Assembly (NCBI RefSeq): GCF_009914755.1
Contig: NC_060931.1
DNA length: 64,000 nucleotides
Direction: 5' to 3' (one strand)
From: the human T2T-CHM13v2.0 reference genome, Homo sapiens
A program made the translations under genes and the position numbers. This document shows, in pieces, positions 23,180 through 26,261 of the stretch. Each line of letters begins with the position of its first letter. The first letter of the stretch is position 1. The notes under the pieces were generated by a model. The model saw only the letters and a list, made by a program, of their open reading frames with translations, was not told the origin of the DNA and ran no database searches.

Positions 23180-23571
23180 TCAGAATGACTTACGAGAGGG
23201 GAGATGGGAGCCATGCCCCTGTGGTGGGACACGTTTATCTTCTATGATTTACTACACACACTTAGTCCATGATCCAGGAGAGAGGTTTCCAAAAAGATGA
23301 CAGAGAAGAGGTGTCCTCTATCATGGGAAGAGGAGGACTCTCCTCCCTTCCTGCAAGGTTTGAGTAAACCTGGAAGGAAGGCTTCTGAGCTGCTAATGAG
23401 CTTTTGCTTAGGTAGTGCTAGTGTAGAGAAACACATCTCCCTGGCTACCCCACGTTCTTTTAAAAGGGACCTTAGCTGAGACAAAGTGGAGGCAGTTTTG
23501 AAGAAGCTCAAAATGTGCTTTGTGGGTTGTTGATAATAGTCTTGGACCATTAGATAATAGTCTTAATCCTT

Positions 23572-23897
23572 AGAGAAAGAGGAGGAGAAGGAGAAGGAAG
23601 AGGAGGAGAAGAAGGAGGAGAAGGGGGAGAAGAAAGAGAGGGAAAATGAGAGGGAGGAGAAGAAGAAAGGGGAGAAAGAGGAGGAGGAGGAGGAGAAGGA
23701 GAAGGAAGAGAAGGAGGAGGAGGAGAAGGAGGAGAAGAAGGAGGAGGAGAAAAAGGAGGAGGAGGAGGAAGACAAAGAGGAGAAGAGTAGGAAACATGGA
23801 AGGAGAAGAAGGAGGAGGAAGAGGGGAAAGAGGAGGAGAAAAGGGAGGAGGAGAAGAAGAGGAAGATGAGGAGAAGAAGGAGGGGGAGAAGAGAGCA
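23572..23897. repeat. (GGA/GAA)n polypurine tract
   Basis: About 325 bp almost entirely G/A. Confidence 0.95.
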
Positions 23898-24189
23898 GCT
23901 ATGTCAGCTTTGCCAAGTTAGGATGAAACCACCAAAAGCTGAAACCTAAGAATGAGTAGAAGAAGGTGGATAACACATCAAAATCAGGTTTCTGCAGGAA
24001 GAGAGCAGGCAGAAGTATAGCCAGCTTTATCAATGAAGCTGGCATGATGTATAACGGAGGGTGCAAAATCTGAGCACACTGTATATGGATGCCCAATTCT
24101 GGTAGCCAAATCTTAAGTTAAGGGCAAAGTGATACTTTGTCAGGAAGACAGCAGGTTGTAGTAGAAATGATTTGTGACTACTCTATGAT

Positions 24190-25135
24190 GCCTAGGGCCT
24201 CATCTAGGAAGATCAGATAGCTGGAGGGTGACATCTGGAGTCTGGAACCGTTTGGAGACTTCTTCATTCACATATCTGTGTCTGGTCTGGGATGATTCAG
24301 AGTGGCCTCAGTGGAGGCTGTTGGTCTACATGTAGCCTCTCCTGTGCTTGGGCTTCCTCACAGCATGGTGGCCTTGTAGCTATAATAGATCATTTGCTAA
24401 TGCACAGAGCAAGTTGATACACTGAGACACCAATTTGCAGCAGAGAAAGAGGTTTAATTGTAGGGTCACCAAAGGAGGAGATGGGAGAAAACCTCAAATC
24501 CTTCTCCCTGAGCAATTTGGGGTTAGATTTTTTTGAGGGTTTTGGAGTGGATTGAAGTGTGGAGATTATTAATTGGTGGAAAAGTGTGGGGTAAAGGCAT
24601 GGGGCAGAGAGATAAAGAAGCTATATTCCATGCTGATCCTAATCTTCTGTGGGGGTCTCCAAACTGGTTGCTGAAATTTGTGGTTTGAAAAATATCTTAA
24701 GCAATACTTAAACAAAAGCCTTATGATTCTAACGTCAGAGATCCTCTCTATAGGAACAATGGGGGTGCACGTACTCAGGATCTAGTGCTACATGACTTCC
24801 AGCAACAAGGAAGTCAGCCAAAGTGCAGCCTAATTGATGCTTAATTTTAATTATGTTTCTGTACAGAACCTGGCATGCAATTCTGGTCAATCCTGTGGGG
24901 ATGGTTTCAACCTCAGGACAGTCAGTGGTGGCTCAGGCATCCAAGAGCAGGCGTCCCAGAAAACAAGGTGGAACCTGCTTGTCCTAGCATTGAAACACCC
25001 CACAGTGTCTCGTCCCTTATACTCTACAGGTCAAAGCAGTCACAGGTCTGCCCAGATTCAACAGGGGGGGACACAGAGCTCACATCTCAGTGGGAGAGTA
25101 TTGAAGAATTGGTACCCATGTTTAAAAATTGCCAC
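24190..25135 (-). mobile_element. Old MLT1 (J/K-like) MaLR LTR, split by an ERV1 LTR
   Basis: gcttgggcttcctcacagcatggtggcct...aaagcagtcacaggtctgcccagattcaa. Confidence 0.7.
24375..24909 (-). mobile_element. ERV1 solo LTR (MER66-like)
   Basis: TG...CA ends (reverse complement begins tgaaaccatccccacagg); TSD gcct/acct. Confidence 0.75.
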
Positions 25136-25271
25136 TCTCATTTTCCTGAGCATCTCTCTCCTGTCTTGCCTTTTCATGTCAAGGTTATTGACTCATCTCT
25201 GGACTTATTCTCCTTAATGTATCCAGATAGGTGTCTCTTGCATTCTTCCACACATAGTTTGGGTTATTGTA

Positions 25272-25660
25272 TTAGGTTGGTGCCCATGTAATTGCGACTT
25301 TTGCTCTCACTTTTAATGGAGAATTCTTCACTTACATATCTGTGTCTGGTCTGGGGTGACTCAGAGTGGCCTCAGTGGAGGCTGTTGGTCCACATGTAGC
25401 CTTTCATGTGCTTGGGCTTCCTCACAGCATGGTGGCCTTATAATTGTAATAGGTGTGTTTGCTAATGGACAGAGCAAGTCAATACACTGAGACACCAATT
25501 TCCAGCAGAGAAAGAGGTTTAATCATAGGGTCGCCAAATGAGGAGATGGGAGGAAACCTCAAATCCATCACCCCAAGGAATTTGGGGTTAGACTTTTTAA
25601 GGGTTCTGGAATGGCCATTATTTTAATGGCGGAAATCGCAATTATTTTCCATCAACTTAC
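25272..25660. mobile_element. MADE1 (Hsmar1 mariner MITE) carrying a ~300 bp internal insert
   Basis: TA + ttaggttggtgcccatgtaattgcgacttttgc...ttttaatgg (left half); ccattattttaatggcggaaatcgcaattattttccatcaacttac + TA (right half). Confidence 0.88.
25317..25614 (+). repeat. Direct-orientation duplicate of 24253-24550
   Basis: Hand alignment ~88% identity over ~298 bp, including the MLT1/LTR junction. Confidence 0.95.
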
Positions 25661-25784
25661 TATTTCCAACAGCTAAGGTCAAACAGTTCTTAGGTTTTGT
25701 AGGACTTGGGCTGGCTTCATGGTGAATTAGAAATAACACAGGTTTGGCTGGAGACAGAGAAACCCAGGTTCCAATGGTTCATCA

Positions 25785-25975
25785 GTCCCTATGCTAACTT
25801 CTATGCATGCATGATCTTCCTGGATCCTTACAAGAACTCCTTGATGAAGGTATAATTAGTTCCCTTATTTAACAAGTGAAGGAACTGAAGCCCAGAAATG
25901 TTAATGAATTGGCCCAGGGTTCCACAGCTAAGTGACAGAACCACAATTTAAACCCGCAGTCTTAATCACCATGCT
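25785..25975 (-). mobile_element. MIR
   Basis: cccttatttaacaagtgaaggaactgaagcccagaaatgttaatgaattggccc. Confidence 0.7.
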
Positions 25976-26261
25976 CTTCACCTCTCCTGCCAATGTCATT
26001 TAGTGAGTATTTCTAGCTGTATGTACTTGGGCATGCAGTCAGTATATGGTTGCATTTTCTACACCTTCCTTCCCTACGTCATGGTTGGTTAGGGTCATGT
26101 AACCAGTACCAGCCAATGAATGATAAGCAGAGGTAATAAATGTAATTTCTGGGGCAAGCATTTAACTGCTGGTGCAAGACCTTGTTCCAGAGCTCTCTCT
26201 CCCTTTGGGGACTGTGACTGGCATTATTTGAGATGGTAGCTGTTTAATCAGCCTGGGTCCC

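What the first reader, a model, noticed from the sequence alone, without database searches (positions are those of the whole stretch)
25270..25662. MADE1 mariner MITE with ~300 bp of neighbouring DNA captured in its palindrome centre
Seen in sequence: both halves of an 80-bp MADE1, with outer TA target duplications (25270-71, 25661-62), flank a direct copy (25317-25614) of 24253-24550, ~1.06 kb upstream, at ~88% identity by hand count. The copy spans the MLT1/ERV1-LTR junction (ggtggcct|tgta), so it was copied from this locus and is not an independent repeat insertion. The MADE1 centre (..cacttttaatgg / ccattattttaatgg) is present on both sides, and both junctions have short microhomology (tgg; tg). 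Established: MADE1 is an Hsmar1 derivative whose TIRs are bound by the domesticated SETMAR protein, and Pack-type capture is well known in plant DNA transposons. Inference: a break at the hairpin apex, or gap repair during transposition, was patched from local DNA, giving a TIR-bounded cargo element. The divergence places it early in anthropoid evolution, possibly while Hsmar1 was still active.
Basis: partly seen in the sequence, partly recalled or inferred. Interest (0 to 1): 0.8.

Follow-up and report, generated by a model that had tools for sequence, protein, structure and literature searches.

The report
Old MADE1 palindrome patched with neighbouring DNA
An ancient 80-bp mariner-type mini-transposon (MADE1) was split at the tip of its palindrome by a roughly 295-bp copy of DNA lying 1 kb upstream; it is a single-copy fossil of DNA repair, not a mobile cargo-carrying element.

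Summary
Window 25272-25660 is a diverged MADE1 with TA on both sides. It is split by a direct copy (25317-25614) of 24253-24550, which lies 1,064 bp upstream (264 of 297 aligned bases identical, 88.9%). The copy crosses a nesting junction between two unrelated repeats (24374|24375). In the whole genome only the source and this copy span that junction, so the DNA was copied locally.

MADE1 positions 1-48 lie left of the insert and 33-80 lie right of it. The 16-bp apex is therefore directly duplicated. Junction microhomology is 3 nt on the left and 1 nt on the right.

The same 16-bp apex duplication occurs without any insert in three other MADE1 copies. In one of them that I folded, the hairpin tip falls exactly where the focal insert sits.

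Best reading: instability at the palindrome tip (a break or a nascent-strand hairpin slip) was repaired by template switching onto nearby DNA. This happened in one step or in two.

The composite has no second copy in the genome, so mobilisation of the Pack type is not supported. The insert has no poly(A), so an L1-mediated origin is unlikely. Primate orthologues could not be examined here. This is a known kind of event of modest interest.

The parts
24111..24374 (+). The start is approximate.
   Evidence: Eight uninterrupted relatives (71-73% identity over their long matches) align to window 24111/24208..24367/24374 and then continue directly into window ~24865-24966 onward.
24375..24909 (+). 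It begins TG and ends CA. The 3' end is approximate.
   Evidence: Alignments of 5 of 6 family copies start at window 24373-24376 (the sixth at 24401). 4 of 6 end at 24905-24914 and 2 stop earlier. Family copies match only query 162-351 of the composite.
24910..25168 (+). 3' part of the old LTR-like repeat. The limits are approximate.
   Evidence: the right-hand alignments of the uninterrupted relatives end between 25025 and 25168.
24253..24550 (+). Source segment that was copied. It spans the nesting junction 24374|24375.
   Evidence: The repeat context continues on both sides of it, so this one is the parent and not the copy.
25270..25271 (.). Left TA target-site duplication.
   Evidence: Read from the sequence. 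All 11 reference MADE1 copies are flanked by TA or a near variant.
25272..25319 (.). MADE1 positions 1-48: the left inverted repeat plus the whole apex. The last 3 nt (TGG) are shared with the insert.
   Evidence: 39-42 of 50 identical (with the TA) to 11 intact copies.
25304..25319 (.). Apex copy 1 (element positions 33-48, 16 nt).
25317..25614 (+). Inserted direct copy of 24253-24550: 295-298 bp, depending on how the microhomology is assigned.
   Evidence: 88.9% identity; the old-repeat part is 93% identical to the source, while the long matches to other family members are at most 73% identical (two short ones of about 45 nt reach 89-91%).
25615..25629 (.). Apex copy 2 (element positions 33-48, with one base missing, 15 nt).
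25615..25660 (.). MADE1 positions 33-80: the apex plus the right inverted repeat.
   Evidence: 39-44 of 51 identical (with 3 nt before it and the TA after it).
25661..25662 (.). Right TA target-site duplication.

Best explanation
A MADE1 (the 80-bp palindromic derivative of Hsmar1) inserted at a TA in unique DNA. Later, tens of millions of years ago, its palindrome tip failed. Either a hairpin or cruciform tip broke, or a nascent strand that had just passed the apex folded back and left its template. The free 3' end, ending in TGG, primed on a TGG 1,064 bp upstream on the same strand. It copied about 295 nt across the old-repeat/LTR junction and was then rejoined to the element at position 32/33 with 1 nt of homology.

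The 16-bp apex on both sides is the same duplication that other MADE1 copies carry without an insert. It arose in one of two ways. In the one-step version (a double template switch) it was made in the same event. In the two-step version it arose earlier; the earlier slip moved the hairpin tip to exactly the point where the patch now sits.

Shown: the anatomy, the local origin of the insert, its single-copy state, the recurrence of the apex duplication, and the predicted tip position. Inferred: the trigger, the order of steps and the enzymes. Today the element is an inert fossil. Its arms have decayed and it no longer matches the mir-548 hairpin model.
For: - Local origin and direction of copying.
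- The insert sits at the apex of a sequence that folds, when intact, as an almost perfect DNA hairpin: -39.5 kcal/mol, z = -13, with 0 of 200 shuffles folding as well.
- The left junction shares TGG with the source and the right junction shares G.
- A tandem duplication of the identical 16-bp apex unit occurs in 3 other MADE1 copies: L051 x2 in a complete element with TA flanks, L050 x3, L052 x2. The reversed-pattern control gives 0.
- Related apex units are repeated elsewhere: 21 bp x3 in L047/48 and 18 bp x2 in L037. L040 carries a backward switch within the element after position 48.
- The 96-nt apex-duplicated element L051 folds as one hairpin (-35.4 kcal/mol) whose tip is the junction of the two apex copies.
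- Mismatches between source and copy are shared about evenly: 19 on the copy lineage, 13 on the source lineage, 3 unresolved, binomial p = 0.38. This is what an old neutral duplication should show.
- Literature, passages only: template switching at microhomology gives templated insertions (PMC8421209); cruciform resolution and 'center-break palindrome revision' (PMC3300023).
Against: - No orthologous sequence could be examined, so the order of events, the trigger and even the one-event assumption are untested.
- Microhomologies of 3 nt and 1 nt are weak evidence on their own.
- The templated insertions described in the MMBIR paper I read are short and copied from within about 100 bp. Here the insert is about 295 bp copied from 1 kb away.
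- In my restricted survey no second MADE1 carried a copy of nearby DNA. That survey covered 15 loci whose exact apex 17-mer is followed by non-MADE1 sequence, with 4 of them re-examined over about +-5 kb. The focal case is so far unique.
- The survey selected for a break exactly after position 48, so it cannot show that this position is a hot spot.
- The MADE1 halves carry about 17 differences in 96 nt. That is more than the insert's per-lineage divergence predicts (Poisson p = 0.002-0.02), and I cannot explain it.
Confidence: 0.55

Rival explanations
1. Abortive gap repair after transposase excision. Hsmar1 transposase excised this MADE1 and the gap was recopied from the sister chromatid. Both nascent ends stopped just past the apex, and one switched template to nearby DNA before the ends were joined (filler DNA). 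The composite formed in place while Hsmar1 was active.
For: Both inverted repeats and both TA flanks are complete. The two MADE1 pieces each reach 48 nt in from their end, which is symmetric. [quoted passage not shown] The loose date of 28-61 Myr overlaps the 40-58 Myr given for SETMAR exaptation.
Against: Abortive gap repair usually deletes internal sequence; here nothing is lost and 16 bp is gained. The same 16-bp gain occurs without filler in three other copies. The two nascent ends would have had 16 complementary nt and should simply have annealed. The old-repeat part of the copy is only 6.6% diverged (8 of 122), which hints at a younger date.
Confidence: 0.15
2. Two unrelated steps. First, a 1,064-bp tandem duplication (24253 to the MADE1 apex). 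Then a deletion of about 766 bp that removed the rest of the second unit up to MADE1 position 32.
For: The start-to-start spacing (1064) equals the distance from the source start to the insertion point, by construction. TGG microhomology lies at the would-be duplication junction.
Against: It needs two events, both ending within 8 nt of the same palindrome centre. It leaves no other trace. It does not explain why the retained overlap equals the recurrent 16-bp apex unit.
Confidence: 0.1
3. L1-mediated (or other RNA-templated) insertion of a local transcript at the L1 endonuclease site in the MADE1 apex, with the 13-17-bp duplication being its target-site duplication.
For: The apex holds a TTTT/AA motif. 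It is truly used by L1 machinery elsewhere. An antisense Alu with a poly(T) and a roughly 16-bp duplication sits in the centre of the MADE1 at C1:99365247. Seven of the 15 surveyed loci have an Alu right after position 48 (Alu recognised by eye). The size of the duplication fits the class 1 features in PMC5110952.
Against: There is no poly(A) or poly(T) at either junction and no AATAAA near either end. On both sides the MADE1 sequence runs at least 2 nt past the TTTT/AA nick site, so the implied nick is not at an endonuclease-type site. The donor is 1 kb away in the same orientation, which is expected for DNA-templated repair but not for retroposition. The same duplication exists without an insert.
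Confidence: 0.05
4. A true Pack-type mariner element: the composite was formed and then transposed, perhaps by a local hop, as a cargo-carrying unit.
For: The structure alone fits: inverted repeats and TA duplications bound DNA that has a parental copy nearby.
Against: There is no other copy. The 389-bp composite matches only itself at full length; the second hit is the source, and the other 38 scored hits cover only the LTR part. The flank 25140-25271 is unique in the genome (1 of 1 match). The cargo is repeat DNA and no gene is annotated within 100 kb (hub table).
Confidence: 0.03

Closest known systems
MADE1 / hsa-mir-548 hairpins (the Hsmar1-derived MITE)
   Same: Both inverted repeats, the apex and the TA duplications match intact copies. 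The family definition comes from PMC1784062 passages: 80 bp, two 37-bp inverted repeats and 6 internal bp.
   Different: It is 389 bp instead of 80. The apex is duplicated and a 295-bp foreign block lies in the middle. The arms are now complementary at only 30 of 48 columns. No Rfam mir-548 match appears even at E <= 10.
Templated insertions by template switching at microhomology (MMBIR / FoSTeS, DSB-repair 'patches', class 2 templated sequence insertions)
   Same: A cis donor, direct orientation, short microhomology at both junctions, no poly(A). Descriptions are in PMC8421209 and PMC5110952 (passages).
   Different: The insert is longer and the donor more distant than the events of about 100 bp range described in PMC8421209. 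The recipient shows a 16-bp duplication, which class 2 events are said to lack. The site is the tip of a palindrome.
Palindrome centre-break revision and cruciform resolution (PATRR-type instability)
   Same: The rearrangement sits at the symmetry centre of a strong palindrome and destroys it, which stabilises the locus. The concept comes from passages of PMC3300023, which cites Cunningham 2003 and Inagaki 2009.
   Different: Those cases are large or AT-rich palindromes that yield deletions or translocations. Here an 80-96-bp MITE received a templated patch. The primary paper (PMC262683) is not held, so its details are not checked.
Filler DNA in DNA-transposon derivatives (abortive gap repair) and Pack-MULE / Pack-TYPE transduplication
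   Same: Host DNA lies between intact transposon ends, with a parental copy in the genome (PMC3814204 passages; the Pack-TYPE paper PMC8903248 and PMC2572040 seen only as search listings).
   Different: There was no amplification, no gene fragment and nothing deleted from the element. Rubin and Levy 1997 is not held.

Membership tests
MADE1 (Hsmar1-derived MITE) | Terminal inverted repeats of the Hsmar1/MADE1 type at both ends | tested here: met
   Left 39-42 of 50 and right 39-44 of 51 identical to 11 intact genomic copies. The canonical 23-mer of the repeat is not matched at <= 3 mismatches (0 hits in the window), because the focal left repeat has 5 differences in it.
MADE1 (Hsmar1-derived MITE) | TA target-site duplication | tested here: met
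   TA at 25270-71 and 25661-62.
MADE1 (Hsmar1-derived MITE) | 80-bp near-perfect palindrome (two 37-bp repeats plus 6 bp) that folds as a mir-548-type hairpin | tested here: not met
   The present form is 389 bp and has no mir-548 match at E <= 10. This is a derived state of a true member, not evidence against its origin.
Pack-type / transduplicating DNA transposon | Transposon ends and a target duplication enclosing host DNA that has a parental copy | tested here: met
Pack-type / transduplicating DNA transposon | Mobilised: further copies of the composite at other loci | tested here: not met
   Only 1 full-length match (itself) among 40 scored of 556 candidates in the 3.1-Gb assembly. Other primate genomes were not searchable.
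Pack-type / transduplicating DNA transposon | Cargo is a gene or exon fragment | tested here: not met
   The cargo is the junction of two interspersed repeats. The hub table lists no gene within 100 kb upstream and only an RPL21 pseudogene in the window.
L1-mediated templated sequence insertion (class 1, PMC5110952) | Target-site duplication of at least 5 bp | tested here: inconclusive
   A 13-17-bp duplication is present, but the identical duplication occurs without an insert in 3 other MADE1 copies.
L1-mediated templated sequence insertion (class 1, PMC5110952) | Poly(A) tract and an upstream polyadenylation signal | tested here: not met
   No A or T run and no AATAAA at either end of the insert on either strand.
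L1-mediated templated sequence insertion (class 1, PMC5110952) | First nick at a 5'-TTTT/A-3' site | tested here: not met
   The motif is in the apex, but the duplicated block extends at least 2 nt beyond it on both sides.
Template-switch / DSB-repair templated insertion | Donor in the genome, junction microhomology, no retroposition marks | tested here: met
   The donor is 1,064 bp upstream. TGG and G lie at the junctions. There is no poly(A).
Palindrome centre-break revision | Breakpoint at the symmetry centre or hairpin tip | tested here: met
   The insert lies between two apex copies. In an apex-duplicated MADE1 (L051) the predicted hairpin tip is exactly that junction. Measured from the original centre (40|41), the two breakpoints are symmetric at 8 nt each in the 33-48 reading.
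Palindrome centre-break revision | Hairpin or cruciform extrusion and cleavage in vivo | not testable with these tools
   Only in-silico folding was possible.

The most novel reading that the evidence does not exclude
The tips of MADE1 palindromes are recurrently unstable in the primate germ line. They produce a graded series of backward template switches: tandem apex duplications of 16-21 bp (L050, L051, L052, L047/48, L037), a switch within the element (L040), and at the far end this 295-bp patch copied from 1 kb away. If so, the few thousand MADE1 / mir-548 hairpins would be a natural genome-wide record of how short palindromes break and are repaired. Apex duplication would be a first step that lengthens the palindrome and invites a second break.
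Probability: 0.25. Interest if true: 0.5.

Novelty: new member of a known kind. Interest (0 to 1): 0.3.

Why it matters
The element itself has no sign of function. It lies in a gene-poor stretch, is single-copy, and its SETMAR-type repeats are decayed. By my count from the alignments they are about 82% and 79% identical to a typical 28-bp repeat, while the ITR set in PMC6326780 was defined with an 80% cut-off.

Its value is as a clean natural example. The donor, the recipient, both junctions and the direction of copying can all be read without ambiguity, because the donor spans a unique repeat-in-repeat junction.

Together with the insert-free apex duplications found in other copies, it suggests a testable idea: short MITE palindromes are revised at their tips by template switching. 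It also warns annotators that two half-MADE1 hits around a repeat fragment can be one rearranged element.

Tried and rejected
- Rfam scan of 24000-26000 at E <= 10: only three chance-level hits (E 4-7.2) and no mir-548.
- A listing of exact 21-mers of the inverted repeat gave 693 forward and 724 reverse hits. Only the first 100 (chromosome 1) are shown. They contain 5 convergent pairs within 2 kb: 3 plain MADE1, 1 MADE1 with a central Alu, and 1 Hsmar1-length element with an Alu. This sample is too small to use.
- Restricted survey: of the 15 loci with a break right after position 48, none had a copy of DNA from within about +-1.5 kb. The 4 loci that showed no right arm were re-examined over about +-5 kb. 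Again there was no right arm, and the only local similarity was Alu to Alu.
- Test for error-prone synthesis: there is no significant excess of changes on the copy lineage (19 against 13, p = 0.38).
- No paralogous empty site exists, because the flank 25140-25271 is unique.
- Cunningham 2003 and Rubin and Levy 1997 are not held.
- Literature searches listed no paper on captured or templated DNA inside MADE1. The palindrome catalogue PMC7680136 does not mention MADE1, mariner or transposons. Supplements, such as the ITR table of PMC6326780, were not opened, and its coordinates could not be mapped to this assembly here.

Full report
**1. The observation**

The window sequence and the repeat finder show a direct repeat with a start-to-start spacing of 1064-1065 bp. 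A local alignment puts it at 24253-24550 against 25317-25614. It has 264 identical positions, 33 mismatches (25 transitions, 8 transversions) and two one-base gaps. That is 88.9% identity with a K2P distance of 0.122. The homology stops abruptly at both ends of the downstream copy.

**2. Are the flanks MADE1?**

No tool here names repeat families, so I took references from the genome itself.
- Rfam mir-548 (RF01061), which models MADE1-derived hairpins, gave 56 scored matches in the window's own 3.1-Gb assembly. Of these, 51 were above the family cut-off.
- Eleven of the loci were read. They are 80-bp palindromes flanked by TA.
- Against each of these 11, the left flank 25270-25319 (TA plus element positions 1-48) is identical at 39-42 of 50 positions. 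The right flank 25612-25662 (positions 33-80 plus TA) is identical at 39-44 of 51.
- The element is old and worn. Its left repeat has 5 differences in a canonical 23-mer, so a search at <= 3 mismatches finds nothing in the window. The two arms are now complementary at only 30 of 48 columns. No mir-548 match appears in 24000-26000 even at E <= 10.
- The family definition comes from passages of PMC1784062: 80 bp, two 37-bp inverted repeats and 6 internal bp, derived from Hsmar1.

**3. Where did the middle come from?**

The source lies in a nested repeat.
- Uninterrupted relatives of an old LTR-like repeat align to the window up to 24367-24374. They then carry straight on from about 24865-24966.
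- Copies of a younger LTR-like family align from 24373-24376 (5 of 6 copies) to 24905-24914 (4 of 6).
- So 24375 to about 24909 is an insertion into the older element. The junction 24374|24375 is a one-off historical accident.
- A 120-mer centred near that junction has 24 matches in the genome. Only 2 of the 24 span it, the source and the MADE1-embedded copy. The other 22 end at query position 73 or earlier.
- The old-repeat part of the copy is 93% identical to the source. The long matches to other family members are 71-73% identical.
- The repeat context continues on both sides of 24253-24550 but not of 25317-25614. The upstream block is therefore the parent.
I could not verify them.

**4. 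Mobilised or not?**

Searching the genome with the whole composite (25272-25660) gives one full-length match, itself. The source is second (88% over query 46-343). The other 38 scored matches, out of 556 candidates, cover only query 162-351, which is the younger LTR family. The flank 25140-25271 is unique (1 of 1 match). There is thus no sign that the composite ever moved as a unit in the human lineage. Other primate genomes could not be searched.

**5. Junction anatomy**

- Left of the insert the element runs through position 48, and its last three bases (TGG) are also the first three of the source.
- Right of the insert the element resumes at position 33, preceded by a G that the source end and element position 32 share.
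- Nothing of the MADE1 is missing. Positions 33-48, the 16-nt apex (a 6-bp mini-stem and a 4-nt loop), are present twice with the loop in the same orientation.
- Depending on how the microhomology is assigned, the duplication is 13-17 bp and the insert 295-298 bp.

**6. Is the duplication a target-site duplication?**

The apex contains a TTTT/AA motif, and L1 machinery does use it.
- The MADE1 at C1:99365247 has an antisense Alu with a poly(T) and a roughly 16-bp duplication in its centre.
- 7 of the 15 loci selected for non-MADE1 sequence right after position 48 carry an Alu there (Alu recognised by eye).
- The focal insert differs in three ways. It has no poly(A) or poly(T) and no AATAAA. 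The MADE1 sequence runs at least 2 nt past the nick motif on both sides. Its donor is 1 kb away in the same orientation.
- Measured against the class 1 criteria in PMC5110952 (passages), two of the three features fail.

**7. The apex duplication recurs without any insert**

- A pattern made of the 16-mer twice in tandem (<= 3 mismatches) finds 3 places in the genome and 0 with the reversed control.
- L051 is a complete MADE1 with TA flanks and positions 33-48 twice. L050 has the unit three times. L052 has it twice.
- Related cases turned up in the other survey: a 21-bp apex unit three times (L047/48), an 18-bp unit twice (L037), and a copy of the element's own positions ~7-21 placed after position 48 (L040).
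- An intact MADE1 folds as a DNA hairpin at -39.5 kcal/mol (z = -13). The 96-nt apex-duplicated L051 folds as one longer hairpin at -35.4 kcal/mol. Its tip is exactly the junction between the two apex copies, which is the point where the focal insert sits.

**8. Mechanism**

I commit to tip instability of the palindrome followed by template switching. A 3' end ending in TGG primed 1,064 bp upstream, copied about 295 nt and was rejoined at position 32/33. There are two versions.
- One event: the nascent strand leaves after position 48, makes an excursion and realigns at 32/33. Without the excursion, this same realignment gives the plain apex duplication.
- Two events: a slip duplicates the apex first, which creates a longer palindrome whose tip then breaks and is patched.

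I cannot tell the two versions apart. The trigger (cruciform or hairpin cleavage against replication stalling) is inferred, not shown. Supporting concepts come from passages of PMC8421209 and PMC3300023.

Rivals:
- Abortive gap repair after transposase excision (passages of PMC3814204) explains the intact ends. It does not explain why nothing was deleted.
- A tandem duplication followed by a deletion needs two independent hits at the same centre.
- The L1/RNA route and true Pack-type mobilisation are the weakest, for the reasons given above.

**9. Age**

- K2P 0.122 gives 28-61 Myr with neutral rates of 2.2 to 1.0 x 10^-9 per site per year (rates recalled). This overlaps the 40-58 Myr given for SETMAR exaptation in PMC6326780 (passages).
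- The two halves of the copy disagree: 8 of 122 mismatches in the old-repeat part against 27 of 176 in the LTR part (Fisher p = 0.027).
- Outgroup copies assign 19 changes to the copy lineage, 13 to the source lineage and leave 3 unresolved (p = 0.38). Repair synthesis therefore left no detectable mutational excess.
- The MADE1 halves have about 17 differences in 96 nt from typical copies. That is more than expected (Poisson p = 0.002-0.02), and I have no explanation.

**10. Limits**

- No orthologues could be examined, and no repeat-family library was available.
- The surveys require near-exact apex sequence and a break at one fixed position. They therefore show that such events exist, not how often they occur.
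- In those surveys no second element with a copy of nearby DNA was found. The 15 loci were checked within about +-1.5 kb and 4 of them within about +-5 kb.

**11. Verdict**

This is a rearranged MADE1 carrying a locally templated patch at its palindrome tip. It is a new example of known repair processes, with a modestly interesting lead on recurrent apex instability of MADE1.

Noticed in passing
L051 (G000:C12:97551214-97551245), L050 (C8:105225401-105225432), L052 (C18:71722668-71722699): Other MADE1 copies carry the 16-bp apex (element positions 33-48) two or three times in tandem with no insert. The reversed-pattern control found none.
   Followed up: partly
L047/L048 (G000:C18:2638317-2638360), L037 (C2:206919018), L040 (C7:73510421): Further apex rearrangements: a 21-bp apex unit three times in tandem; an 18-bp unit twice, with an Alu inserted in it; and a copy of the element's own left-arm positions ~7-21 placed after position 48.
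   Followed up: partly
L031 (G000:C1:99365247-99365658); L037, L038, L042, L043, L044, L046, L049: The TTTT/AA motif in the MADE1 apex is repeatedly used for Alu insertion. There is one antisense Alu in the element centre on chromosome 1, and 7 of the 15 loci selected for a break after position 48 carry an Alu. Alu was identified by eye.
   Followed up: partly
L033 (G000:C1:107544089-107544149): Two MADE1 left arms lie in the same orientation 40 bp apart. The first stops near its centre and the second is truncated after about position 55. This looks like a nested or partly duplicated MADE1.
   Followed up: no
window 25317-25438 versus 25439-25614: The two parts of the copy differ in divergence from the source: 8 of 122 against 27 of 176 (Fisher p = 0.027). 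Several TG/CA double mismatches lie in the LTR part. Possible causes are faster CpG decay in the then-younger LTR or partial gene conversion; neither was resolved.
   Followed up: partly
window 25272-25319 and 25615-25660: The MADE1 halves have about 17 differences in 96 nt from typical copies, partly in clusters (element positions 13-16, 26-27, 34-37, 50-51). This is more than the insert's age predicts.
   Followed up: partly
window 23561-23969: A purine-rich GGA/GAG-type imperfect array of about 350-400 bp lies upstream of the source (families D1 and D2 of the repeat finder).
   Followed up: no
L035 (G000:C10:81557431), L041 (C9:136137776), L045 (C14:22303198), L039 (C4:137030506): Half MADE1 elements end exactly after position 48, with no right arm within about 5 kb and no local copy of the adjoining DNA. 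L039 is followed by what looks like an L1 3' end (by eye).
   Followed up: partly
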